Below, piece after piece: positions 1-13,182 of a stretch of 60,537 nt of DNA. Location: assembly GCF_003334255.1 (NCBI RefSeq), contig NZ_QOWU01000027.1; one strand, written 5' to 3'. Position 1 is the first letter of the stretch. Every line of letters begins with the position of its first letter. A program made the position numbers and the translations under genes. This stretch comes from Escherichia coli (lineage in GTDB: Bacteria > Pseudomonadota > Gammaproteobacteria > Enterobacterales > Enterobacteriaceae). The notes under the pieces were generated by a model, which was given only the letters and a program-made list of their open reading frames with translations, was not told the DNA's origin and made no database searches.

Positions 1-2351
1 AGTTATCGTGAGAGTAATTCATCGGCACGTTAAATCATATCAGGCGTAATACCACAACCCTTAAGTTAGCGCTTATGAGTAGTCTCCCCTCCCTGGCTTT
101 CGAAAAAGAAAAAATCGCCGATTCCGGTGCTGGATTTAGCGCCATTAGGCATTGAGCCAATCTGTTATCTGACAGAAGAAATCAGTAATCAACTTTTGGC
201 GAAATATATCTGGTATTCAAAACACATCACGGTTAGCCATGAAGAAAGTACTACCAACCTGTTGGCAAGGATGGGTTTTCAACGACGGATCGCTGGTACA
301 TATATTAAAGCTCCCGAAGCGGTAGTTGAGGCATGGCTAAATGAAGATTATTCAACCTTACTAAGTGAATTTAAGGTGTTTCATTCACCTACCGGGCATT
401 ATTGGCAGTTGGGGATTTTGACAACATTGCCGCTGGAGAAAGCAGTAAAAGCATGGAATGCCCTTACCCTATCTCCACATACCGATACCGAATACTCCAT
501 GTTACATTTTGGACTCAAAGGGTTACCTGGGTTAGTAAACTCACTTGCACGCTATCCACAAGAAGCCTTGCCCATCACGAATTACTTCGCAGCGAGTGAG
601 CTGGCACCTGCCGTCGCCCGCGCCTTCAACAAACTCAAAACCCTACGACAAGACGCCCGTAGCTGGCTGCTAAAATACCCGGAACATGCCATAACCGGCC
701 TGCTACCTGCGGCGCTCGGCAAAGCCGGTGAAGCCCAGGATAACGCCCGCGCTGCCTTGCGTATGCTTACCGAAAACGGTCATCAGCCATTACTGCAAGA
801 AATCGCCCGGCGTTATAACCAGCCGGAAGTAACAGACGCGGTGAACGCTCTGCTTGCGCTCGATCCCTTAGATAATCACCCGACAAAAATCCCCACTCTT
901 CCGGCCTTTTATCAGCCATCGCTCTGGACGCGCCCGGTATTAAAAGCAAACGCCCAATCACTGCCAGATAACGCCCTCCTCCACCTCGGTGAAATGCTCC
1001 GCTTCCCTCAGGAAGAGGCTCTATATCCGGGATTATTGCAGGTGAAAGATGCCTGTACCGCCGACTCACTGGCTGAATTTGCCTGGGATCTGTTTACCGC
1101 CTGGCAGACCGCTGGCGCGCCGTCGAAAGAAAGCTGGGCGTTCACTGCGTTAGGCGTTCTCGGTAACGATGACACCGCCCGCAAACTGACGCCATTAATC
1201 CGCGCCTGGCCTGGCGAATCTCAGCATAAACGTGCCACCGTTGGGTTGGATATTCTCGCTGCTATCGGTAGTGATATCGCCCTGATGCAGCTTAACGGCA
1301 TCGCCCAGAAACTGAAATTCAAAGCATTACAGGAGCGGGCAAAAGAAAAAATTGCCGACATTGCCGAAAGTCGCGAACTCACGGTGGCGGAGCTTGAAGA
1401 TCGGTTAGCACCGGATCTCGGTCTGGATGATAACGGTTCGCTGCTGCTGGATTTCGGCCCACGTCAGTTCACCGTCAGCTTTGATGAAACCTTAAAACCG
1501 TTTGTGCGCGATGCTTCCGGCAGCCGCCTGAAAGACCTGCCCAAACCAAACAAAAGCGATGATGAATCGCGGGCTGATGAGGCGGTTAACCGCTACAAAC
1601 TGCTGAAAAAAGATGCGCGTACCGTCGCCGCCCAGCAGGTGGCAAGGCTTGAATCCGCCATGTGCCTGCGCCGCCGCTGGTCACCAGAAAACTTCCAGCT
1701 CTTCCTGGTTGAGCACCCGATGGTTCGCCACTTAACCCGACGTCTGATTTGGGGCGTTTATAGCGCCGACAACCAGCTACAGGCGTGCTTTAGGGTAGCG
1801 GAAGATAACAGCTACAGCACCGCTGACGATGATCTTTTCACCCTGCCGGAAGGCGATATCTCTCTTGGTATTCCTCACGTTCTGGAAATATCACCGACGG
1901 ATGCTGCCGCCTTTGGTCAGCTTTTGCCGACTACGAACTGCTACCACCGTTCCGTCAGCTTGACCGTAACAGTTACGCCCTGACAGAAGCCGAGCGCAAT
2001 GCCAGCGAATTGATCCGCTGGGCAGGCAGAAAATGCCCGAGTGGTCGGGTAATGGGGCTGGCGAATAAAGGCTGGATAAAGGGCACCCCGCAGGATGCAG
2101 GCTGGATCGGCTGGATGATCAAACCTCTCGGTCGCTGGTCGTTAATCATGGAAATCGATGAAGGCTTTGCGGTAGGCATGTCGCCAGCCGAACTCAGCGC
2201 TGAGCAGCTCTTAAGCAAGCTGTGGCTATGGGAAGGCAAAGCAGAAAGATATGGCTGGGGGAGTAATTCAACACAGGAAGCGCAGTTCTCCGTAATCGAT
2301 GCCATCACCGCCAGCGAGCTAATTAACGATATTGAAGCCCTGTTTGAATAA
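1..2351 (+). pseudogene. molR: Decayed paralogue of yehI (large DUF4132-type protein; K-12 molR / yehG-yehH pseudogene). The window begins inside it.
   Basis: ORF 127-1983 aligns colinearly with the C-terminal two thirds of YehI (FAWDLFTAWQ.AGAP, DFGPRQFTV.FDE, RRWS..F). The frame breaks at T-run 1922-1925: gcttttgcc at 1920-1928 versus gctttttgcc at the equivalent yehI site 5618-5627. Homology (FADYELLPPFRQL...) then continues in the frame of ORF 2010-2351. There is an in-frame TGA at 76-78, and homologous residues upstream lie in another frame. Confidence 0.85.
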
Positions 2352-2360
2352 GGAAAGAGC

Positions 2361-5300
2361 ATGGACAAGGAATTACCGTGGCTGGCGGATAACGCCCAAC
2401 TGGAACTGAAATATAAAAAAGGCAAAACGCCGCTCAGTCATCGTCGCTGGCCGGGCGAACCAGTGTCCGTTATCACTGGAAGTCTCATCCAGACATTGGG
2501 TGATGAATTGCTACAAAAAGCTGAGAAGAAAAAAAACATTGTCTGGCGTTATGAGAATTTTTCACTGGAGTGGCAGTCCGCCATCACGCAGGCCATCAAC
2601 TTGATCGGCGAACACAAACCCTCAATCCCGGCCCGGACAATGGCGGCGCTAGCCTGTATCGCGCAAAATGACAGCCAACAGTTGCTCGACGAAATCGTCC
2701 AACAAGAGGGGCTGGAATATGCGACTGAGGTGGTGATTGCACGCCAGTTTATTGCGCGGTGTTATGAGAGTGATCCTCTGGTAGTGACATTGCAGTATCA
2801 GGACGAGGATTATGGCTATGGTTATCGCTCAGAAACCTATAACGAATTCGATCTCCGACTGCGTAAGCATCTCTCTCTGGCAGAGGAAAGCTGCTGGCAG
2901 CGTTGCGCCGACAAACTCATTGCCGCACTACCAGGAATAACCAAAGTTCGCCGCCCTTTTATTGCGCTGATCCTCCCGGAAAAACCAGAAATAGCCAATG
3001 AGTTGGTAGGCCTTGAATGCCCGCGAACTCATTTTCATTCTAAGGAGTGGTTAAAAGTTGTTGCTAATGACCCCACAGCGGTGAGAAAACTCGAACACTA
3101 CTGGAGCCAGGATATATTTAGCGATCGAGAAGCCAGCTACATGTCGCATGAAAACCACTTCGGCTACGCGGCCTGCGCCGCCCTTTTGCGCGAACAAGGA
3201 CTGGCAGCCATTCCGCGCCTCGCGATGTATGCCCATAAAGAAGATTGCGGCAGTCTGCTGGTACAAATTAACCATCCGCAAGTCATCCGCACCTTGCTAC
3301 TGGTGGCTGATAAAAACAAACCCAGCCTGCAACGTGTGGCTAAATACAGTAAAAACTTCCCCCATGCGACGCTCGCCGCACTGGCAGAACTGCTGGCGTT
3401 AACAGAACCACCAGCCCGCCCTGGTTATCCAATCATCGAAGACAAAAAGCTGCCTGCACAGCAAAAAGCACGCGATGAATACTGGCGTACGCTGTTACAA
3501 ACGCTGATGGCATCGCAGCCACAACTGGCAGCAGAAGTGATGCCGTGGTTAAGTACTCAACCCCAGTCAGTGCTGAAGAGTTATTTATCGGCACCGCCCA
3601 AACCGGTTATTGATGGCACCGATAACAGCAATCTGCCAGAAATCCTCGTTTCACCACCGTGGCGTAGTAAGAAAAAAATGACAGCTCCACGTCTTGATTT
3701 GGCACCGCTCGAATTAACTCCGCAAGTTTACTGGCAACCAGGCGAACAAGAGAGGCTTGCCGCCACTGAGCCTGCCCGTTATTTCAGCACGGAATCTCTT
3801 GCGCAACGCATGGAACAAAAAAGTGGACGAGTTGTATTACAGGAACTGGGTTTTGGGGATGATGTATGGCTGTTTCTGAATTATATACTCCCCGGAAAAC
3901 TGGATGCTGCACGCAATTCACTCATTGTTCAGTGGCATTACTACCAGGGGCGGGTTGAAGAGATCCTGAATGGCTGGAACTCCCCGGAAGCACAATTAGC
4001 AGAACAGGCGCTCCGCAGCGGTCACATAGAAGCGTTAATTAACATATGGGAAAATGACAACTACTCACGTTATCGTCCGGAAAAGAGTGTCTGGAACCTG
4101 TATTTATTGGCACAGTTGCCGCGTGAGATGGCTTTGACCTTCTGGCTGCGTATCAATGAGAAAAAGCATCTGTTCGCGGGTGAGGACTATTTTCTCAGTA
4201 TCCTCGGATTGGATGCGCTACCAGGTCTGCTGTTGGCTTTTTCACATCGTCCAAAAGAAACATTTCCGTTAATTTTAAATTTCGGCGCAACAGAACTGGC
4301 CCTGCCCGTTGCCCGCGTCTGGCACCGTTTTGCGGGCCAGCGTAATCTGGCTCGCCAGTGGATTTTACAATGGCCGGAACATACGGCTACTGCACTTATT
4401 CCACTCGTCTTTGTTAAACCCTGCGACAACAGCGAAGCGGCATTATTTGCCCTTCGTTTACTGTATGAACAAGGACATAGTGAATTACTGCAAACGGTTG
4501 CAAACCGCTGGGATCGCGCTGATATGTGGCCAGCCCTGGAAAAAATACTTACCCAGAACCCGATGGAAATTTACCCGGCACGCATTCCAAAAGCCCCTGA
4601 TTTCTGGCATCCGCAAATGTGGTCCAGGCCGCGCCTTATCACTAATAATCAAACTGTTACCAATGACGCTCTGGAAATTATCGGCGAAATGCTGCGCTTT
4701 ACCCAGGGGGGACGTTTTTATAGCGGGCTGGAACAACTGAAAACGTTCTGCCAGCCACAAACGCTGGCAGCTTTTGCCTGGGATCTCTTCACTGCGTGGC
4801 AACAAGCTGGTGCCCCCGCAAAAGACAACTGGGCATTTCTGGCGTTAAGTCTCTTTGGTGACGAAAGCACGGCACGGGATCTGACGACACAGATCCTCGC
4901 CTGGCCACAAGAAGGCAAATCTGCCCGTGCTGTCAGCGGCCTGAACATCCTTACCCTGATGAATAATGATATGGCGCTGATACAGCTGCATCATATATCG
5001 CAACGGGCTAAATCCCGCCCCTTACGTGATAACGCGGCGGAATTTCTTCAGGTGGTCGCAGAAAATCGCGGGCTAAGCCAGGAAGAGCTAGCGGACAGAT
5101 TAGTCCCAACCCTGGGCCTTGATGATCCGCAGGCGTTGAGTTTTGATTTTGGTCCCCGGCAGTTTACCGTTCGCTTCGATGAAAATCTCAACCCGGTTAT
5201 CTTTGATCAGCAAAACGTTCGCCAGAAAAGCGTTCCCCGTTTGCGCGCCGATGACGATCAACTGAAAGCGCCCGAGGCACTGGCCCGACTAAAAGGGCTA

Positions 5301-5993
5301 AAAAAAGATGCTACTCAGGTGAGCAAAAACCTGCTCCCGCGTCTTGAAACGGCCCTACGTACCACCCGACGCTGGTCGCTGGCAGATTTTCATTCTCTGT
5401 TTGTTAATCATCCCTTTACCCGTCTGGTTACCCAGCGATTAATATGGGGGGTTTATCCGGCAAATGAACCGCGTTGTTTACTCAAAGCCTTTCGTGTGGC
5501 CGCAGAGGGGGAGTTCTGCAATGCGCAAGATGAGCCAATTGACCTGCCTGCGGACGCTCTGATTGGCATTGCCCACCCGTTAGAAATGACAGCAGAAATG
5601 CGCAGTGAATTTGCACAGCTTTTTGCCGATTACGAAATTATGCCGCCTTTTCGCCAGTTGTCGCGCCGCACGGTGCTGCTCACACCTGACGAGTCAACCA
5701 GTAACAGCCTGACTCGCTGGGAAGGTAAATCCGCTACCGTTGGGCAACTTATGGGAATGCGATACAAAGGCTGGGAGTCAGGCTATGAGGACGCATTTGT
5801 CTATAACCTGGGTGAGTACCGGCTGGTCCTTAAGTTTTCACCCGGTTTTAACCACTACAATGTTGATAGCAAAGCGCTAATGAGCTTCCGTTCTCTTCGA
5901 GTGTACCGTGACAATAAATCCGTCACTTTTGCCGAACTTGATGTGTTTGATTTGAGTGAGGCGTTAAGCGCACCTGACGTCATTTTCCATTAA
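2361..5993 (+). CDS. yehI: Large (1210 aa) uncharacterised DUF4132-type protein YehI
   Basis: Single long ORF with AAGGA Shine-Dalgarno 8 nt upstream of the ATG. Length and sequence match my recollection of K-12 YehI. It is the intact paralogue of the upstream pseudogene. Confidence 0.93.
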   Translation: MDKELPWLADNAQLELKYKKGKTPLSHRRWPGEPVSVITGSLIQTLGDELLQKAEKKKNIVWRYENFSLEWQSAITQAINLIGEHKPSIPARTMAALACIAQNDSQQLLDEIVQQEGLEYATEVVIARQFIARCYESDPLVVTLQYQDEDYGYGYRSETYNEFDLRLRKHLSLAEESCWQRCADKLIAALPGITKVRRPFIALILPEKPEIANELVGLECPRTHFHSKEWLKVVANDPTAVRKLEHYWSQDIFSDREASYMSHENHFGYAACAALLREQGLAAIPRLAMYAHKEDCGSLLVQINHPQVIRTLLLVADKNKPSLQRVAKYSKNFPHATLAALAELLALTEPPARPGYPIIEDKKLPAQQKARDEYWRTLLQTLMASQPQLAAEVMPWLSTQPQSVLKSYLSAPPKPVIDGTDNSNLPEILVSPPWRSKKKMTAPRLDLAPLELTPQVYWQPGEQERLAATEPARYFSTESLAQRMEQKSGRVVLQELGFGDDVWLFLNYILPGKLDAARNSLIVQWHYYQGRVEEILNGWNSPEAQLAEQALRSGHIEALINIWENDNYSRYRPEKSVWNLYLLAQLPREMALTFWLRINEKKHLFAGEDYFLSILGLDALPGLLLAFSHRPKETFPLILNFGATELALPVARVWHRFAGQRNLARQWILQWPEHTATALIPLVFVKPCDNSEAALFALRLLYEQGHSELLQTVANRWDRADMWPALEKILTQNPMEIYPARIPKAPDFWHPQMWSRPRLITNNQTVTNDALEIIGEMLRFTQGGRFYSGLEQLKTFCQPQTLAAFAWDLFTAWQQAGAPAKDNWAFLALSLFGDESTARDLTTQILAWPQEGKSARAVSGLNILTLMNNDMALIQLHHISQRAKSRPLRDNAAEFLQVVAENRGLSQEELADRLVPTLGLDDPQALSFDFGPRQFTVRFDENLNPVIFDQQNVRQKSVPRLRADDDQLKAPEALARLKGLKKDATQVSKNLLPRLETALRTTRRWSLADFHSLFVNHPFTRLVTQRLIWGVYPANEPRCLLKAFRVAAEGEFCNAQDEPIDLPADALIGIAHPLEMTAEMRSEFAQLFADYEIMPPFRQLSRRTVLLTPDESTSNSLTRWEGKSATVGQLMGMRYKGWESGYEDAFVYNLGEYRLVLKFSPGFNHYNVDSKALMSFRSLRVYRDNKSVTFAELDVFDLSEALSAPDVIFH

Positions 5994-6000
5994 AACACAG

Positions 6001-6022
6001 CGGGCAGTGATGCAACTGCCCG
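6001..6022 (+). terminator. Hairpin just after the yehI stop (CGGGCAGT / ACTGCCCG, 6-nt loop); a weak terminator or attenuator
   Basis: Perfect 8-bp inverted repeat read directly from the sequence. The downstream tract is only weakly T-rich. Confidence 0.3.
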
Positions 6023-6053
6023 TTATCAACACGACTTACCAGCGGGGAAAGCG

Positions 6054-6371
6054 ATGATCGTGCAAAAAGAGCTGGTTGCTATTTACGATTATGAGGTCCC
6101 TGTACCTGAAGATCCGTTTTCCTTCAGACTTGAGATCCATAAATGCTCTGAATTATTTACAGGTTCCGTCTATCGACTGGAGCGATTCCGGCTACGTCCA
6201 ACATTTCATCAACGTGATCGAGAAGATGCTGACCCGCTAATAAATGATGCGTTGATTTATATAAGAGATGAGTGTATTGATGAGCGGAAATTACGAGGTG
6301 AATCACCTGAAACTGTAATAGCAATTTTTAATCGTGAACTACAGAATATATTCAACCAAGAAATAGAATAA
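6054..6371 (+). CDS. yehK: Small uncharacterised protein YehK (105 aa)
   Basis: ORF with GGGGAAAG upstream of the ATG. It is visibly more AT-rich than the flanking genes. Matches recalled K-12 YehK. Confidence 0.8.
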   Translation: MIVQKELVAIYDYEVPVPEDPFSFRLEIHKCSELFTGSVYRLERFRLRPTFHQRDREDADPLINDALIYIRDECIDERKLRGESPETVIAIFNRELQNIFNQEIE

Positions 6372-6448
6372 TATACTCTAAATAATTCAAATTGGTCCGA
6401 TCCGGCGCAACGTCCCAATGGCCTGGATTATAAATCTCATTATCTTAA

Positions 6449-6477
6449 TTGCAACGGGGTCCAGCCGTGGTTATAAT
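6449..6477 (+). promoter_or_regulatory. Near-consensus sigma70 promoter in the yehK-yehL intergenic region
   Basis: TTGCAA (6449-6454), a 17-bp spacer, then a perfect TATAAT (6472-6477). Confidence 0.5.
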
Positions 6478-6483
6478 TCGTTC

Positions 6484-6570
6484 GTTGGAACACGATGTTG
6501 CACAGGCTGTGGTGTTAGGCCTGAAAATAGTAAATAAAAGAACCTGCCTCACCAGCAGGTTTTTTTATTT
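6484..6570 (+). ncRNA. Candidate ~85-nt sRNA or terminated leader transcript upstream of yehL
   Basis: Predicted start ~7 nt after the TATAAT. Internal hairpin CAGGC/GCCTG (6503-6507 / 6519-6523), an A/U-rich linker (6524-6540), and an intrinsic terminator ACCTGC/GCAGGT (6542-6547 / 6555-6560) followed by a T-run (6560-6566). Confidence 0.35.
6542..6570 (+). terminator. Rho-independent terminator
   Basis: 6-bp GC-rich stem, 7-nt loop, then seven T residues; read directly from the sequence. Confidence 0.7.
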
Positions 6571-6677
6571 ACTGTGATCTGCTTTCCAGATATTTTTCGC
6601 TCAAACAACTAATGCGCCAAACATTTATTGCGCGTAAAATATCGTTTATTTCATTAATACATTTCAGGGATGAATAT

Positions 6678-7766
6678 ATGTCACCGCAGAATAATCATCT
6701 GCAGCGTCCGCCTGCTGCTGTGTTATACGCCGATGAACTGGCAAAATTAAAACAAAATGATAACGCACCTTGCCCGCCCGGTTGGCAGTTAAGTTTGCCT
6801 GCGGCCCGTGCTTTTATCCTTGGCGACGAAGCGCAAAATATCAGCCGTAAAGTGGTGATTAGCCCCTCCGCTGTCGAACGTATGTTAGTCACTCTTGCTA
6901 CCGGCCGCGGTTTGATGTTGGTGGGGGAACCGGGTACCGCAAAATCTCTTCTTTCTGAATTACTGGCAACCGCTATTAGCGGCGATGCCGGGTTAACCAT
7001 CCAGGGCGGGGCATCTACCACCGAAGATCAAATCAAGTATGGCTGGAACTACGCCCTGCTTATCAATCATGGTCCGTCAACGGAAGCGCTGGTCCCTGCC
7101 CCGCTTTATCAGGGAATGCGCGACGGCAAAATCGTCCGTTTCGAAGAGATAACGCGTACACCGCTGGAAGTGCAGGACTGTCTGTTAGGTATGCTTTCTG
7201 ACAGGGTGATGACGGTGCCGGAACTCACTGGTGAAGCCAGTCAGCTCTATGCGCGAGAAGGCTTTAATATTATTGCCACTGCCAATACCCGCGATCGCGG
7301 CGTCAATGAAATGAGTGCTGCGCTAAAGCGTCGCTTCGATTTTGAAACGGTTTTTCCGATTATGGATTTCGCCCAGGAGTTGGAACTGGTCGCCAGTGCT
7401 TCGGCGCGTTTGCTGGCCCATAGCGGTATTCCGCATAAAGTGCCTGACGCGGTACTGGAATTACTGGTCCGCACCTTCCGCGATCTGCGTGCCAACGGCG
7501 AAAAGAAAACGTCAATGGATACACTGACAGCGATTATGTCCACCGCTGAAGCCGTGAACGTGGCCCATGCTGTGGGCGTCCGCGCCTGGTTTTTAGCGAA
7601 TCGCGCGGGGGAGCCTGCCGACCTGGTGGAATGTATTGCCGGAACCATCGTCAAAGATAACGAAGAAGATCGCGCGCGTCTGCGCCGTTACTTCGAACAG
7701 CGTGTCGCCACACATAAAGAAGCTCACTGGCAGGCTTATTATCAAGCCCGCCACCGCCTGCCGTGA
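6678..7766 (+). CDS. yehL: MoxR-family AAA+ ATPase YehL (362 aa)
   Basis: Walker A GEPGTAKS (6924-6947), a RFEE Walker-B-like motif, ATANTRD sensor-1 and the AALKRRF MoxR/AAA_5 signature. The ATG at 6678 has AGGGA upstream. The longer ORF start at 6612 lacks support. Confidence 0.92.
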   Translation: MSPQNNHLQRPPAAVLYADELAKLKQNDNAPCPPGWQLSLPAARAFILGDEAQNISRKVVISPSAVERMLVTLATGRGLMLVGEPGTAKSLLSELLATAISGDAGLTIQGGASTTEDQIKYGWNYALLINHGPSTEALVPAPLYQGMRDGKIVRFEEITRTPLEVQDCLLGMLSDRVMTVPELTGEASQLYAREGFNIIATANTRDRGVNEMSAALKRRFDFETVFPIMDFAQELELVASASARLLAHSGIPHKVPDAVLELLVRTFRDLRANGEKKTSMDTLTAIMSTAEAVNVAHAVGVRAWFLANRAGEPADLVECIAGTIVKDNEEDRARLRRYFEQRVATHKEAHWQAYYQARHRLP

Positions 7767-7776
7767 GGAAAGATGC

Positions 7777-10056
7777 ATGAGCGAGCCGTTAATTGTCGGC
7801 ATCCGGCATCATAGTCCGGCCTGCGCCCGGCTGGTGAAATCGTTAATCGAAAGCCAGCGGCCACGATACGTGTTGATTGAAGGCCCGGCTGATTTTAATG
7901 ACCGGGTAGACGAACTGTTTTTAGCCCACCAGCTTCCGGTAGCTATTTACAGTTATTGCCAGTATCAGGACGGTGCAGCCCCCGGGCGTGGTGCCTGGAC
8001 GCCATTTGCTGAATTTTCGCCGGAGTGGCAGGCGCTACAAGCCGCACGTCGCATTCAGGCACAAACTTACTTCATCGATTTGCCTTGCTGGGCGCAGAGT
8101 GAAGAAGAGGACGATTCGCCTGATACGCAAGATGAAAGCCAGGCCTTACTGCTGCGTGCCACCCGCATGGATAACAGCGATACCCTGTGGGATCACTTGT
8201 TCGAAGATGAAAGCCAGCAAACTGCATTACCCTCTGCGCTGGCGCACTATTTTGCCCAACTGCGGGGCGACGCCTCCGGCGATGCGCTCAATCGTCAGCG
8301 CGAAGCCTTTATGGCCCGCTGGATTGGATGGGCGATGCAGCAAAATAATGGCGACGTGTTAGTTGTCTGCGGTGGCTGGCACGCTCCGGCACTGGCAAAG
8401 ATGTGGCGCGAATGCCCTCAGAAAATTAACAAGCCAGAATTGCCCTCGCTGGCAGATGCCGTTACAGGTTGTTATCTCACACCCTACAGTGAAAAGCGCC
8501 TTGATGTGCTGGCAGGATACCTTTCAGGAATGCCTGCCCCGGTATGGCAAAACTGGTGCTGGCAGTGGGGCTTGCAGAAGGCCGGTGAACAACTGCTAAA
8601 AACTATCCTTACCCGTTTGCGCCAGCACAAATTGCCCGCTTCTACCGCGGATATGGCTGCCGCTCATCTGCATGCGATGGCGCTGGCACAGTTGCGCGGT
8701 CATACACTACCGTTACGCACTGACTGGCTGGATGCCATAGCAGGCTCGCTGATTAAAGAAGCCCTGAACGCGCCGTTGCCGTGGAGCTATCGCGGCGTTA
8801 TTCATCCCGATACCGATCCGATTCTGCTAACGTTGATAGACACATTAGCGGGTGACGGATTCGGTAAACTTGCCCCTTCTACGCCACAACCGCCTCTGCC
8901 AAAAGATGTCACCTGCGAACTGGAACGTACCGCAATCTCCCTTCCGGCGGAGCTTACCTTAAATCGCTTTACCCCCGATGGGCTGGCGCAAAGTCAGGTG
9001 TTACATCGGCTGGCAATACTGGAGATCCCTGGGATTGTACGCCAGCAGGGAAGTACACTGACACTTGCAGGCAACGGTGAAGAACGCTGGAAATTAACCC
9101 ACCCGCTTAGCCAGCATGCGGCATTGATTGAGGCCGCCTGCTTTGGCGCCACGCTCCAGGAAGCCGCACGCAATAAATTAGAAGCCGATATGCTGGACGC
9201 GGGTGGAATCGGCTGCATCACCGCATGTCTTAGCCAGGCGGCGTTAGCGAGTCTGGCGTCCTTCAGTCAACAATTACTGAAGCAACTCACGTTATTAATC
9301 GCCCAGGAAAATCAATTTGCCGAAATGGGCCCGGCGCTGGAAGTGCTATATGCCTTATGGCGGCTGGATGAAATTAGCGGTATGCAAGGTGCGCAGATAT
9401 TACAAACGACGTTATGCGCGGCTATCGATCGCACGCTGTGGCTGTGTGAATCCAACGGCAGACCGGATGAAAAGGAGTTTCACGCTCACCTGCATAGCTG
9501 GCAAGCGTTGTGCCATATTCTGCGCGATCTGCATAGCGGCGTTAATTTACCCGGCGTTTCTCTTTCTGCGGCGGTAGCCTTACTGGAGCGACGCAGTCAG
9601 GCGATTCATGCCCCGGCGCTGGATCGCGGCGCGACTCTTGGTGCGCTGATGCGTCTGGAACATCCCAACGCCAGTGCCGAAGCGGCGCTGACAATGCTGG
9701 CGCAGTTATCCCCGGCACAATCCGGCGAGGCGCTGCACGGTTTGCTGGCATTAGCCCGTCATCAACTGGCCTGTCAGCCGGCATTTATCGCCGGTTTCAG
9801 CAGTCATTTAAATCAACTAAGTGATGCCGATTTTACCAATGCCCTGCCCGATTTACGCGCGGCAATGGCCTGGCTACCGCCACGAGAACGCGGGACGCTG
9901 GCGCATCAGGTGCTTGAGCATTATCAACTGGCGCAACTTCCCGTTTCGGCACTGCAAATGCCGTTGCATTGTCCACCGCAAGCCATTGCACATCATCAAC
10001 AACTCGAACAGCAGGCACTGGCATCGCTGCAACACTGGGGAGTTTTCCATGTCTGA
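7777..10056 (+). CDS. yehM: Uncharacterised 759-aa protein YehM
   Basis: ATG 10 nt after the yehL stop, with GAGGAA upstream. N-terminal motifs are VGIRHHSP and VVCGGWHAP. The C-terminal ~500 aa are Leu/Ala-rich and look helical. Confidence 0.9.
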   Translation: MSEPLIVGIRHHSPACARLVKSLIESQRPRYVLIEGPADFNDRVDELFLAHQLPVAIYSYCQYQDGAAPGRGAWTPFAEFSPEWQALQAARRIQAQTYFIDLPCWAQSEEEDDSPDTQDESQALLLRATRMDNSDTLWDHLFEDESQQTALPSALAHYFAQLRGDASGDALNRQREAFMARWIGWAMQQNNGDVLVVCGGWHAPALAKMWRECPQKINKPELPSLADAVTGCYLTPYSEKRLDVLAGYLSGMPAPVWQNWCWQWGLQKAGEQLLKTILTRLRQHKLPASTADMAAAHLHAMALAQLRGHTLPLRTDWLDAIAGSLIKEALNAPLPWSYRGVIHPDTDPILLTLIDTLAGDGFGKLAPSTPQPPLPKDVTCELERTAISLPAELTLNRFTPDGLAQSQVLHRLAILEIPGIVRQQGSTLTLAGNGEERWKLTHPLSQHAALIEAACFGATLQEAARNKLEADMLDAGGIGCITACLSQAALASLASFSQQLLKQLTLLIAQENQFAEMGPALEVLYALWRLDEISGMQGAQILQTTLCAAIDRTLWLCESNGRPDEKEFHAHLHSWQALCHILRDLHSGVNLPGVSLSAAVALLERRSQAIHAPALDRGATLGALMRLEHPNASAEAALTMLAQLSPAQSGEALHGLLALARHQLACQPAFIAGFSSHLNQLSDADFTNALPDLRAAMAWLPPRERGTLAHQVLEHYQLAQLPVSALQMPLHCPPQAIAHHQQLEQQALASLQHWGVFHV

Positions 10057-11185
10057 ACTGAACGATCTTCTGACCACCCGTGAGCTACAACGCTGGCGAT
10101 TAATTCTTGGCGAAGCGGCAGAAACGACGCTTTGTGGGCTGGATGACAACGCCCGGCAGATAGACCACGCGCTGGAGTGGCTGTATGGGCGCGATCCTGA
10201 ACGGCTCCAGCGTGGTGAACGCTCCGGTGGATTAGGTGGCTCAAATCTCACCACCCCTGAGTGGATCAACAGTATTCACACGCTGTTTCCGCAACAGGTG
10301 ATTGAGCGGCTGGAAAGCGATGCCGTACTGCGCTACGGCATTGAAGATGTGGTGACAAATCTCGACGTGCTGGAACGTATGCAGCCTTCCGAAAGCCTGC
10401 TACGCGCCGTTTTGCACACCAAACATCTGATGAATCCCGAAGTACTGGCTGCCGCCCGCCAGATAGTGCGCCAGGTTGTTGAAGAAATTATGGCGCGACT
10501 GGCAAAGGAAGTTCGCCAGGCTTTTTCTGGTGTCCGCGATCGCCGTCGCCGTTCATTTGTTCCACTGGCGCGAAACTTTGATTTCAAAAGTACTCTGCGC
10601 GCCAACCTGCAACACTGGCACCCGCAACACGGCAAGTTGTATATCGAATCCCCCCGCTTTAACAGCCGCATTAAACGCCAAAGCGAACAATGGCAACTGG
10701 TCTTACTGGTTGATCAAAGCGGCTCGATGGTCGATTCGGTGATCCACTCTGCGGTGATGGCGGCCTGTTTGTGGCAGTTACCCGGCATTCGTACCCATCT
10801 GGTGGCGTTTGACACAAGCGTCGTTGATCTCACGGCAGACGTTGCCGATCCGATAGAGTTATTAATGAAAGTGCAATTAGGCGGCGGAACCAATATCGCC
10901 AGTGCCATGGAGTATGGTCGGCAACTTATTGAACAACCTGAAAAAAGCGTCATTATCCTAGTGAGCGATTTTTATGAAGGGGGTTCATCATCATTGCTGA
11001 CGCATCAGGTGAAAAAGTGTGTCCAGAGCGGCATCAAAGTGCTGGGACTGGCAGCGCTCGATAGCACAGCAACGCCTTGCTATGACCGCGATACGGCCCA
11101 GGCGCTGGTTAATGTCGGCGCACAAATAGCCGCCATGACACCGGGCGAGCTGGCATCATGGCTTGCGGAGAATCTTCAGTCATGA
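10049..11185 (+). CDS. yehP: von Willebrand factor A (VWA) domain protein YehP (378 aa)
   Basis: MIDAS DQSGS (10712-10726), with downstream GGGTNI and VSDFYEGG. The start overlaps the yehM stop by 8 nt (ATGTCTGA). Confidence 0.92.
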   Translation: MSELNDLLTTRELQRWRLILGEAAETTLCGLDDNARQIDHALEWLYGRDPERLQRGERSGGLGGSNLTTPEWINSIHTLFPQQVIERLESDAVLRYGIEDVVTNLDVLERMQPSESLLRAVLHTKHLMNPEVLAAARQIVRQVVEEIMARLAKEVRQAFSGVRDRRRRSFVPLARNFDFKSTLRANLQHWHPQHGKLYIESPRFNSRIKRQSEQWQLVLLVDQSGSMVDSVIHSAVMAACLWQLPGIRTHLVAFDTSVVDLTADVADPIELLMKVQLGGGTNIASAMEYGRQLIEQPEKSVIILVSDFYEGGSSSLLTHQVKKCVQSGIKVLGLAALDSTATPCYDRDTAQALVNVGAQIAAMTPGELASWLAENLQS

Positions 11186-13182
11186 ATTCACTACGTCCGG
11201 AATTATTAGAACTGACACCGCAGGCACTGACGGCGTTAAGCAATGCCGGTTTTGTTAAGCGCAGTCTTAAGGAACTGGAAAATGGCAACGTCCCGGAAAT
11301 CAGCCATGAGAACGGCGCTTTAATCGCCACCTTCAGTGACGGTGTCCATACCCAGCTGGCGAACGGCCAGGCACTGAAAGAGGCTCAGTGCACCTGTGGG
11401 GCCAGCGGCATGTGCCGTCATCGCGTGATGCTGGTGTTAAGTTATCAACGACTTTGTGCTACCGCCCAGCCTACGGGAAAAGAAGAGGAATGGGATCCGG
11501 CAATCTGGCTGGAAGAACTGGCTACCCTTCCCGATGCCACCCGCAAACGCGCACAGGTATTGGTCGCTAAAGGCATCACCATTGAGTTGTTATGTGCGCC
11601 GGGTGAAATTCCCTCTGCCCGCTTACCGATGAGCGATGTGCGTTTTTATTCCCGCAGCAGTATTCGTTTCGCCCGTTGTGATTGTATTGAAGGCACACTT
11701 TGCGAACATGTCGTACTGGCTGTGCAGGCCTTCGTCGAGGCCAAAGCGCAGCAAGCGGAATTTACTCATTTAATCTGGCAGATGCGCAGCGAACACGTCA
11801 CATCATCTGACGATCCGTTTGCCAGCGAAGAGGGCAACGCGTGTCGTCAATATGTTCAGCAATTAAGCCAGACATTATGGCTTGGCGGCATCAGCCAGCC
11901 GCTTATTCACTACGAGGCAGCATTCAACCGCGCATTGCAGGCGGCAGAGACCTGCAACTGGCGCTGGGTGAGTGAATCGCTACGGCAACTGCGCGCCAGC
12001 GTTGATGCCTTCCACGCCCGCGCCAGCCACTATAATGCCGGAGAATGCTTACATCAGCTTGCGGCATTAAACAGTCGATTAAATTGCGCACAAGAGATGG
12101 CCCGGCGCGACAGTATTGGTGAAGTTCCTCCTGTGCCGTGGCGCACGGTCGTTGGCTCTGGCATTGCCGGAGAAGCAAAGCTTGATCATCTGCGGCTGGT
12201 GTCTTTAGGTATGCGTTGCTGGCAGGATATTGAGCATTATGGTTTACGCATCTGGTTTACCGATCCCGACACCGGCAGTATTTTGCACCTTTCGCGCAGT
12301 TGGCCGCGAAGTGAACAGGAAAACTCACCGGCAGCTACGCGTCGGCTGTTTAGTTTTCAGGCTGGCGCACTGGCGGGCGGGCAAATTGTTTCACAAGCAG
12401 CAAAACGCAGTGCCGATGGCGAGCTGCTGTTAGCTACCCGCAACCGCTTAAGCAGCGTTGTGCCGCTGTCGCCTGATGCCTGGCAAATGTTGAGCGCGCC
12501 GTTACGCCAGCCGGGCATTGTGGCTTTGCGGGAATATTTACGCCAGCGTCCCCCCGCCTGCATACGGCCTCTTAATCAGGTCGATAACTTATTTATTCTG
12601 CCGGTCGCTGAGTGTATTTCGCTCGGTTGGGATAGCAGCCGCCAGACGCTGGATGCGCAGGTAATCAGCGGCGAAGGTGAAGATAATCTGCTGACGTTAT
12701 CACTGCCAGCCTCAGCCAGCGCGCCTTATGCCGTTGAACGCATGGCGGCGCTTTTGCAACAAACAGACGACCCCGTGTGTCTGGTTTCTGGCTTTGTCAG
12801 TTTTGTTGATGGGCAATTGACACTGGAACCACAGGTAATTATGACAAAGACTCGTGCCTGGGCGCTGGACGCTGAAACTGCGCCTGTGGCACCACTACCT
12901 TCTGCCAGCGTTTTGCCTGTGCCGTCTACTGCTCATCAGTTGCTGATGCGCTGCCAGGCGTTACTTATTCAACTGCTCCATAACGGCTGGCGCTATCAGG
13001 AACAGAGCGCTATTAGTCAGGCAGAGTTGCTGGCGAATGACCTCACCGCGGTGGGTTTTTATCGGCTGGCACATGTGTTGGGGCAATTTCGTAATACAGA
13101 AAGCGAGGCACGGGTAGAAGCAATAAATAACGGTGTTTTGCTTTGCGAACAATTATTCCCCATGCTTCAGCAACAAGGATGA
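11182..13182 (+). CDS. yehQ: SWIM zinc-finger protein YehQ
   Basis: Two CxCx5CxH SWIM motifs: CTCGASGMCRH (11389-11421) and CDCIEGTLCEH (11677-11709). The ATG overlaps the yehP stop in an ATGA junction. The start choice (11182 versus 11158) is inferred from that coupling. Confidence 0.88.
   Translation: MNSLRPELLELTPQALTALSNAGFVKRSLKELENGNVPEISHENGALIATFSDGVHTQLANGQALKEAQCTCGASGMCRHRVMLVLSYQRLCATAQPTGKEEEWDPAIWLEELATLPDATRKRAQVLVAKGITIELLCAPGEIPSARLPMSDVRFYSRSSIRFARCDCIEGTLCEHVVLAVQAFVEAKAQQAEFTHLIWQMRSEHVTSSDDPFASEEGNACRQYVQQLSQTLWLGGISQPLIHYEAAFNRALQAAETCNWRWVSESLRQLRASVDAFHARASHYNAGECLHQLAALNSRLNCAQEMARRDSIGEVPPVPWRTVVGSGIAGEAKLDHLRLVSLGMRCWQDIEHYGLRIWFTDPDTGSILHLSRSWPRSEQENSPAATRRLFSFQAGALAGGQIVSQAAKRSADGELLLATRNRLSSVVPLSPDAWQMLSAPLRQPGIVALREYLRQRPPACIRPLNQVDNLFILPVAECISLGWDSSRQTLDAQVISGEGEDNLLTLSLPASASAPYAVERMAALLQQTDDPVCLVSGFVSFVDGQLTLEPQVIMTKTRAWALDAETAPVAPLPSASVLPVPSTAHQLLMRCQALLIQLLHNGWRYQEQSAISQAELLANDLTAVGFYRLAHVLGQFRNTESEARVEAINNGVLLCEQLFPMLQQQG

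What the first reader, a model, noticed from the sequence alone, without database searches (positions are those of the whole stretch)
6449..6570. Self-contained promoter, hairpin, AU-rich tract and terminator unit between yehK and yehL: a candidate sRNA or transcription-attenuating leader
A TTGCAA-17 bp-TATAAT promoter (6449-6477) is followed within ~85 nt by three elements. These are a 5-bp hairpin (6503-6523), an A/U-rich single-stranded stretch (AAAATAGTAAATAAAAGAA) and a canonical intrinsic terminator with a seven-T tail (6542-6566). This is the classic layout of an Hfq-dependent sRNA. It sits ~110 nt upstream of the yehL start, so it could instead be a terminated leader controlling entry into the yehLMPQ cassette. 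A 7-codon mini-ORF (ATG 6495, MLHRLWC) lies inside it but has no convincing SD. I do not recall any annotated RNA at this position.
Basis: seen in the sequence. Interest (0 to 1): 0.55.

Follow-up and report, generated by a model that had tools for sequence, protein, structure and literature searches.

The report
Orphan OrzP antitoxin small RNA gene
The promoter-hairpin-terminator unit between yehK and yehL is the already described small RNA gene orzP, the antitoxin half of the E. coli zorP-orzP toxin-antitoxin pair, left behind here after the toxin gene was deleted; it is a real small RNA but not a new one.

Summary
The unit is not new. Window 6491-6566(+) matches Rfam RF02083 (OrzO-P antitoxin RNA) over the full model at 99.9 bits (gathering score 60, E 7.5e-17). 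It is base-for-base identical to the yehL-proximal orz copy (orzP) of E. coli O157:H7. In O157:H7 the yehK-yehL gap is 1240 nt and holds two divergent zor (29-aa toxin)/orz pairs. Here it is 306 nt. The toxin gene, most of its 5' UTR and the Orz pairing site are deleted. Only the shared divergent promoter and about 30 nt of the zorP leader remain. About 34% of 5426 complete E. coli genomes are orz-only by my count. Published work (Fozo laboratory, mSystems 2024) describes this state, names the identical MG1655 copy OrzPmg and shows it by northern blot. Published Term-seq places a 3' end at the base corresponding to window 6567. The sRNA reading is therefore correct. The "Hfq-dependent" and "yehL attenuator" readings are not supported. 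What an expressed antitoxin does without its toxin remains open. Verdict: already known, low interest.

The parts
6449..6454 (+). -35 hexamer TTGCAA of orzP. It is palindromic, so the same six bases read as the -35 of the remnant zorP promoter on the minus strand.
   Evidence: One search finds both strands. It is identical in the O157:H7 orzP copy. The hexamer is conserved in 99.7% of 656 orz-only loci according to PMC11264685.
6472..6477 (+). -10 hexamer TATAAT of orzP
   Evidence: Conserved in 98.9% of orz-only loci according to PMC11264685.
6484..6567 (+). OrzP small RNA, 84 nt (orz-only allele, equal to OrzPmg)
   Evidence: Rfam RF02083 hit at 6491-6566, 99.9 bits, E 7.5e-17. Identical to O157:H7 L002 2596-2679. 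The 5' end is inferred from the pairing arithmetic in Wen 2014. The 3' end comes from Term-seq at MG1655 2204485, which equals window 6567.
6484..6503 (+). 5' target-recognition region GUUGGAACACGAUGUUGCAC. The specificity triplet V1 (ACG) lies at 6492-6494.
   Evidence: It pairs at 19 of 20 positions with the zorP 5' UTR of O157:H7 (alignment; duplex -34.8 kcal/mol). The V1 definition is from Wen 2014.
6503..6523 (+). P-type internal hairpin (CAGGCU / GGCCUG)
   Evidence: It is kept, with U-A changing to U-G, in other P-type copies but is absent from O- and Q-type Orz.
6524..6540 (+). A/U-rich linker. A second Term-seq 3' end falls at 6528, giving a species of about 45 nt that is probably a processing product.
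   Evidence: The intrinsic-terminator score at that end is 1.24, below the 3.0 cut-off.
6541..6566 (+). Intrinsic terminator with a U7 tail. Invariant in all Orz copies examined and bidirectional by sequence.
6427..6454 (-). Remnant zorP promoter (TTGCAA, 16-nt spacer, TATAAT). It now points into the 3' end of yehK.
   Evidence: It aligns to the zorP promoter of O157:H7.
6390..6420 (-). Remnant of the zorP 5' UTR, about 30 nt. It carries no Orz pairing site and no toxin ORF.
   Evidence: Alignment A1. PMC11264685 reports 27-29 nt retained in more than 99% of orz-only assemblies.
6381..6392 (.). Deletion junction. Sequence flanking yehK (TATACTCTA.ATAATTCAA) is joined to the zor leader (ATTGGTCC) across a short A-rich microhomology.
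   Evidence: Alignment A1. All 10 orz-only rows sampled align across it in a single piece.

Best explanation
This is orzP, the small-RNA antitoxin gene of the type I toxin-antitoxin module zorP-orzP, in the toxin-deleted ("orz-only") state.

A near-consensus sigma-70 promoter (6449-6477) starts transcription at about 6484. An invariant intrinsic terminator ends it at 6567, giving an RNA of about 84 nt.

In intact modules the first 18-20 nt of Orz pair with a site in the long 5' UTR of the divergently transcribed zor mRNA. That site is the region exposed after 5' processing, which is needed for efficient translation. Repression needs RNase III and does not need Hfq. These points were shown for the paralogue OrzO.

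In this window a deletion has removed the zorP ORF, its terminator and the pairing site, so the RNA has no cognate target here. I infer that it is an expressed relic that still has full antitoxin capacity. It would neutralise any incoming zorP and costs nothing to keep. No toxin-independent role has been demonstrated.
For: - Full-length Rfam RF02083 hit, 99.9 bits against a gathering score of 60.
- 100% identity of promoter and RNA to the yehL-proximal orz of O157:H7, which sits divergent to a 29-aa ZorP ORF, MDSLTQKLTVLIAVLELLVALLRLIDLLK.
- The alignment shows a clean deletion relative to O157:H7, UTI89 and E. whittamii.
- The specificity triplet co-varies between the Orz 5' end and the zor 5' UTR in three paralogues: ACG/ACG, GAA/GAA and GCC/GCC.
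- The OrzP seed gives -34.8 kcal/mol with the zorP leader against -20.2 with zorO.
- The orz region is present in 5235 of 5426 E. coli genomes and the zor region in 3398, so about 34% are orz-only.
- Literature: about 85-nt northern bands and primer-extension starts in EDL933 (PMC2887945); Hfq-independent, RNase III-dependent repression by OrzO (PMC3919570); orz-only strains at about 30%, the name OrzPmg and a northern blot in MG1655 (PMC11264685).
- Term-seq 3' ends at MG1655 2204485 and 2204446 (PMC7815308). The yehK-yehL gap of the window is identical to MG1655.
Against: - Nothing contradicts the identity.
- Expression was measured in MG1655 and EDL933, not in the strain of this window. The window is 98% identical to MG1655 overall, although the locus itself is identical.
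- Direct repression of zorP by OrzP is inferred from the OrzO work and from complementarity. I did not find it tested in the papers read.
- The "relic" reading is a default. High conservation of the promoter in orz-only loci could also reflect selection for another role, or simply a recent shared origin.
Confidence: 0.95

Rival explanations
1. The orphan OrzP has acquired, or always had, a toxin-independent job. One form is base-pairing control of one or more chromosomal mRNAs. Another is standing immunity against zorP genes arriving by horizontal transfer. This adds to the best explanation rather than replacing it.
For: - The RNA is still made in an orz-only strain (northern blot and Term-seq).
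- Promoter hexamers are kept in at least 98.9% of 656 orz-only loci.
- About a third of E. coli genomes carry the orphan.
- The authors of PMC11264685 raise this possibility themselves.
Against: - No target was found. The best non-self duplex in the 60-kb window (-30.2 kcal/mol, interrupted) lies in the background tail.
- The dinQ leader, said to resemble the zor leader, gives only background energies.
- Orz-only loci share one junction and differ by at most about 1.3%. The conservation may therefore just reflect a recent common origin spread by recombination; a block of about 4 kb is near-identical to K-12.
- No phenotype has been reported.
Confidence: 0.2
2. The unit is a transcription-attenuating leader. 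Transcription from the 6449-6477 promoter is mostly stopped at the terminator, and regulated read-through feeds the yehLMPQ genes.
For: - It has the same orientation as yehL and lies 111 nt upstream of it.
- No other promoter of at least 9 of 12 matches was found between the terminator and yehL.
- Adams et al. list the two 3' ends as "upstream ORF" ends for yehL.
Against: - The same unit exists as orzO, where it is followed by the 3' end of zorP and not by yehL.
- There is no competing anti-terminator fold; the minimum-free-energy and centroid structures are the same.
- There is no conserved leader peptide; the ORF runs to 5, 7, 9, 36 or 39 codons and has no Shine-Dalgarno sequence.
- The terminator is strong and invariant.
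- Its 5' end co-varies with the zor leader, which explains the sequence without any reference to yehL.
Confidence: 0.04
3. The mini-ORF (ATG 6495, MLHRLWC) encodes a functional micropeptide or leader peptide.
For: An ATG-initiated ORF exists inside the RNA.
Against: - It has no Shine-Dalgarno sequence.
- The ORF length and sequence are not conserved among Orz variants: 5 codons in UTI89, 7 here, 9 in E. whittamii P-type, and 36 and 39 in O-type copies.
- The ATG lies inside the nucleotides that pair with the zor mRNA.
Confidence: 0.01

Closest known systems
OrzP / OrzPmg (Rfam RF02083, OrzO-P antitoxin family) of E. coli O157:H7 EDL933 and K-12 MG1655
   Same: The promoter and transcribed sequence are identical. 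The genomic position (yehK-yehL), length (about 84-85 nt) and terminator are the same. The orz-only architecture with about 30 nt of zorP leader retained is also the same.
   Different: Nothing at the locus itself differs. The host strain is neither MG1655 nor O157:H7, since flanking blocks diverge by 3-7% from MG1655.
OrzO, antitoxin of ZorO (the characterised paralogue)
   Same: Same family, promoter hexamers, terminator and A/U-rich linker, and same pairing logic through the 5' end.
   Different: The V1 triplet differs (ACG here, GAA in OrzO), as do position 6 and the internal hairpin. OrzP does not repress zorO. Here the cognate toxin is also absent.
IstR-1/tisB and OhsC/shoB (divergently encoded type I antitoxins of E. 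coli)
   Same: In each case the sRNA is encoded divergent to, and not overlapping, the toxin gene. A short (about 18-20 nt) region at the sRNA 5' end pairs with a site far upstream in a long toxin 5' UTR. This comparison is made in PMC2887945 and PMC3919570.
   Different: They are unrelated in sequence. In K-12 those systems keep their toxins, whereas here only the antitoxin survives.
Hfq-dependent trans-acting sRNAs
   Same: Seed region at the 5' end, A/U-rich stretch, and a Rho-independent terminator with a long U tail.
   Different: The characterised family member works without Hfq and needs RNase III. No Hfq binding or trans targets are known for OrzP.

Membership tests
Rfam RF02083 OrzO-P antitoxin RNA | Covariance-model score at or above the curated gathering score, over the full model | tested here: met
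   99.9 bits against 60, model positions 1-76 of 76, E 7.5e-17
Rfam RF02083 OrzO-P antitoxin RNA | Located in the yehK-yehL intergenic region of Escherichia, with its own TTGCAA/TATAAT promoter and an intrinsic terminator | tested here: met
   Genuine orz hits in the scan of species-representative genomes came only from Escherichia.
Rfam RF02083 OrzO-P antitoxin RNA | Made as a discrete RNA of about 85 nt | not testable with these tools
   Literature only: northern blots in EDL933 and MG1655 and Term-seq 3' ends in MG1655, whose locus is identical to the window.
Complete type I toxin-antitoxin module (zor-orz) | A small hydrophobic toxin ORF (29-aa Zor) encoded divergently next to the sRNA | tested here: not met
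   There is no Zor ORF between yehK and orzP. The gap is 306 nt against 1240 nt in O157:H7.
Complete type I toxin-antitoxin module (zor-orz) | A site in the toxin mRNA complementary to the sRNA 5' end (at least 15 continuous or at least 17 discontinuous pairs, following Wen 2014) | tested here: not met
   The only match in the window to the 13-nt core (up to 2 mismatches) is the orzP gene itself. The duplex scan of the whole window finds nothing like the cognate site. The pairing site lies inside the deleted segment.
Complete type I toxin-antitoxin module (zor-orz) | The sRNA rescues cells from toxin over-expression | not testable with these tools
   Shown for OrzO with zorO. For OrzP with zorP it is inferred from 19 of 20 complementarity.
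Hfq-dependent trans-acting sRNA | Requires or binds Hfq and regulates distant mRNAs through a short seed | not testable with these tools
   The layout is compatible. However, OrzO acts without Hfq. The RIL-seq supplements were not available.
Transcription attenuator / terminated leader of yehL | An alternative anti-terminator structure, or a conserved leader peptide coupled to the terminator | tested here: not met
   The fold has a single dominant structure. The mini-ORF is not conserved, at 5, 7, 9, 36 or 39 codons.
Transcription attenuator / terminated leader of yehL | Constant linkage of the element to the regulated downstream gene | tested here: not met
   The orzO copies in O157:H7 and E. 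whittamii are followed by zorP, not yehL.

The most novel reading that the evidence does not exclude
The toxin-less OrzP, kept and expressed in about a third of E. coli strains, may have a function of its own. It could regulate a chromosomal mRNA through its 5' end, or act as pre-installed immunity that disarms zorP modules arriving on mobile DNA (an anti-addiction role).
Probability: 0.2. Interest if true: 0.5.

Novelty: already known. Interest (0 to 1): 0.12.

Why it matters
As a discovery it matters little. The RNA family was found in 2010, dissected in 2014-2017, and the orphan K-12 copy was named and detected in 2024. The locus remains a convenient natural case of an expressed type I antitoxin without its toxin, so it can be used to ask whether such antitoxins do anything besides toxin repression. 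It also flags an annotation gap: the RefSeq MG1655 record searched here carries no feature at this position.

Tried and rejected
1. Structural covariation. Eight distinct Orz variants (alignment A2) give no compensatory pairs. The terminator is invariant, and the internal hairpin is not shared between P-type and O/Q-type copies. Structure conservation therefore neither supports nor contradicts the family. The informative covariation is intermolecular, between V1 and the zor leader.

2. Cross-talk with dinQ. This was prompted by the reported similarity between the zor and dinQ leaders. The OrzP seed against the MG1655 dinQ-agrAB region gives only background energies, -16.6 on the dinQ strand. 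Rejected.

3. Target search inside the 60-kb window. Nothing was found beyond the background tail. A genome-wide search was not possible with the data held.

4. Selection test from SNPs in other orz-only strains. There were 0, 0 and 2 changes in the 84-nt RNA, and the gap differs by at most about 1.3% among the orz-only rows sampled. That is too few to separate selection from recent shared ancestry.

5. Antisense product of the remnant zorP promoter. There are no minus-strand Term-seq 3' ends in MG1655 2203900-2204499. Unresolved.

6. PADLOC scan of YehI, K, L, M, P and Q for a defence-system context. No hits.

7. Papers and files not held. Thomason 2015 dRNA-seq could not be read, and no RIL-seq supplements are held for Melamed 2016. 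I could not read the transcription start or any Hfq chimeras directly.

8. The weak minus-strand OrzO-P hit at 6536-6646 (25 bits) is an artefact of the palindromic terminator.

Full report
**Observation**

- A TTGCAA, 17-nt spacer, TATAAT promoter lies at 6449-6477 (10 of 12 matches).
- A hairpin pairs 6503-6508 with 6518-6523.
- An A/U-rich linker follows.
- An intrinsic terminator at 6541-6566 ends in seven T.

As RNA, 6484-6568 folds into exactly these two hairpins (-27.4 kcal/mol, z = -2.8). The seven-codon ORF at 6495 is also there.

The consensus matches alone are not above chance. The 2-kb scan found 3 promoter-like sites against 2.9 expected from shuffles.

**Identity**

A scan against Rfam gives a full-length hit of 6491-6566(+) to RF02083, the OrzO-P RNA antitoxin family. 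The score is 99.9 bits against a gathering score of 60, with E 7.5e-17.

The yehK-yehL gap is 1240 nt in E. coli O157:H7 strain Z1767, 780 nt in UTI89 and 306 nt here.

In O157:H7 the gap holds two tandem modules. Each has a 29-aa hydrophobic ORF on the minus strand: MDTLTQKL... for ZorO and MDSLTQKL... for ZorP. Each also has a divergent plus-strand Orz RNA.

The window's promoter and RNA are base-for-base identical to the yehL-proximal copy, orzP.

**The deletion**

The alignment (A1) shows a clean deletion in the window. It runs from just after yehK to a point about 30 nt into the zorP 5' UTR.

The deletion removes the toxin ORF, its terminator and the Orz pairing site. It leaves the shared divergent promoter region. 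The TTGCAA hexamer is palindromic and serves both strands.

The window has no other copy of the pairing site and no Zor ORF next to orzP.

E. whittamii carries two complete modules at the same place. I therefore infer that the two-module state is ancestral and the orz-only state derived.

**Distribution**

The orz region matches 5235 of 5426 complete E. coli genomes, and the zor region matches 3398. About 1837 genomes (34%) are therefore orz-only and about 3.5% have neither.

All ten orz-only rows in an even sample align across the junction in one piece, which suggests one deletion event.

An exact-pattern scan for the Orz terminator in one genome per prokaryotic species found genuine orz only in Escherichia. 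The other eight hits were unrelated terminators.

**Literature**

- Fozo et al. 2010 found the z3289/z3290 repeat between yehI and yehL. They detected two sRNAs of about 85 nt, abundant in exponential phase, and mapped their starts by primer extension (PMC2887945).
- Wen et al. 2014 renamed them zorO-orzO and zorP-orzP. They showed that OrzO rescues cells from ZorO through 18 nt at its 5' end, that RNase III is required and Hfq is not, and that the triplet V1 (GAA in OrzO, ACG in OrzP) sets specificity, so OrzP does not repress zorO (PMC3919570).
- Their "5(1)12" description of the OrzP V1 mutant fixes the +1 position at the G of GTTGGAAC. That is window 6484, 7 nt after the -10 hexamer.
- The Fozo laboratory's 2024 mSystems paper reports that about 30% of 2212 E. 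coli assemblies are orz-only, with 27-29 nt of the zor leader retained. In 96% of these the copy is closest to orzP. The MG1655 copy is 100% identical to EDL933 OrzP and is detected by northern blot, and they named it OrzPmg (PMC11264685).
- orzP already appears in a 2025 list of 87 K-12 sRNAs (PMC12306157). The RefSeq MG1655 record has no feature at this position.
- The window's yehK-yehL gap is identical to MG1655. Published Term-seq 3' ends can therefore be transferred: MG1655 2204485(+) equals window 6567, directly after the U tract, and 2204446(+) equals window 6528, in the A/U linker (PMC7815308).
- The end at 6528 has an intrinsic-terminator score of 1.24 and is not flagged as Rho-dependent. 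I infer that it is a processing product.

**Mechanism**

Shown for the paralogue: the Orz 5' end pairs with the region of the zor 5' UTR that becomes exposed after processing. That region is needed for efficient translation, and RNase III is required for repression.

Shown here by sequence:
- The OrzP 5' end pairs at 19 of 20 positions with the zorP leader of O157:H7.
- The predicted duplex is -34.8 kcal/mol, against -20.2 for the non-cognate zorO leader.
- The V1 triplet co-varies between sRNA and leader in three paralogues.

Inferred: in this window the RNA is made but has no cognate target. It is an orphan antitoxin.

**Rivals**

*Attenuator of yehL.* This idea fails for three reasons.
- The same unit, as orzO, is followed by zorP and not yehL.
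- No alternative anti-terminator fold competes with the terminator.
- The internal ORF is 5, 7, 9, 36 or 39 codons long in different variants and has no Shine-Dalgarno sequence.

Some read-through into yehL cannot be excluded, because no other promoter-like site was found before yehL.

*Hfq-dependent sRNA.* This label rests on layout alone and is contradicted for OrzO.

*A toxin-independent role.* This remains possible, but I found no support for it.
- No site in the 60-kb window approaches the cognate pairing.
- The dinQ leader gives only background energies.
- SNPs in other orz-only strains are too few to test selection.

**Context**

The window is not MG1655. It is 97.98% identical over 12 kb. 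Window 5000-9000, which carries the orz-only locus, differs from MG1655 at a single base, while neighbouring blocks differ by 3-7%. This is the usual mosaic left by recombination in E. coli, and it fits spread of one orz-only haplotype.

**Verdict**

The sRNA interpretation is correct, but the RNA is already known (OrzP/OrzPmg, Rfam RF02083). The Hfq and attenuator readings are not supported. Interest is low. The only open question is what, if anything, the orphan antitoxin does.

Noticed in passing
window 6390-6454, minus strand: The intact zorP promoter (TTGCAA, 16-nt spacer, TATAAT) and about 30 nt of its leader survive the deletion and now point antisense into yehK. The next minus-strand terminator-like site is at 6022-6001, so an antisense yehK RNA of about 400 nt is conceivable. 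Published Term-seq lists no minus-strand 3' end in the corresponding MG1655 interval.
   Followed up: partly
window 6528 (+): Term-seq in MG1655 (LB, OD 0.4) records a second 3' end inside the A/U-rich linker. That implies an OrzP 5' fragment of about 45 nt consisting of the seed plus the first hairpin. The intrinsic-terminator score there is 1.24, so it is probably a cleavage product.
   Followed up: partly
window 5000-9000 compared with 500-5000 and 9000-12000: Compared with MG1655, the window has 1 mismatch in the 4 kb around the orz-only locus but 3-7% divergence in the flanking blocks of yehH/yehI and yehM/yehP. This mosaic suggests the orz-only haplotype is shared through recombination.
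   Followed up: partly
L003 (UTI89) about 1530-1680, between yehK and zor: UTI89 carries an extra insert of about 150 nt with long imperfect palindromes between yehK and its single zor-orz module. The insert is absent from O157:H7 and from the window (alignment columns 51-200). From memory it resembles an ERIC/IRU repeat; this was not tested.
   Followed up: no
L001, L002, L003 (yehI, yehK, yehM): Genes of the yeh cassette are annotated as broken in several lineages. yehI is frameshifted in O145 RM8988, yehM has an internal stop in O157:H7 Z1767, and yehK and yehM are frameshifted in UTI89. The cassette (MoxR-type AAA+ ATPase YehL, VWA protein YehP, SWIM protein YehQ, DUF4132 protein YehI) gave no PADLOC hits.
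   Followed up: partly
L021 (strain B-3008) positions equal to window 6510 and 6517: One orz-only strain carries T>C in the hairpin loop and A>G just 5' of the stem's closing U-G wobble. The same two bases are seen in the P-type Orz of E. whittamii. Orz-only loci are therefore not strictly a single allele.
   Followed up: no
window 6536-6646, minus strand: There is a weak (25-bit) OrzO-P hit on the opposite strand that shares the terminator. It is explained by the near-palindromic terminator flanked by A-rich and T-rich tracts, which could also stop transcription coming from the yehL side.
   Followed up: yes
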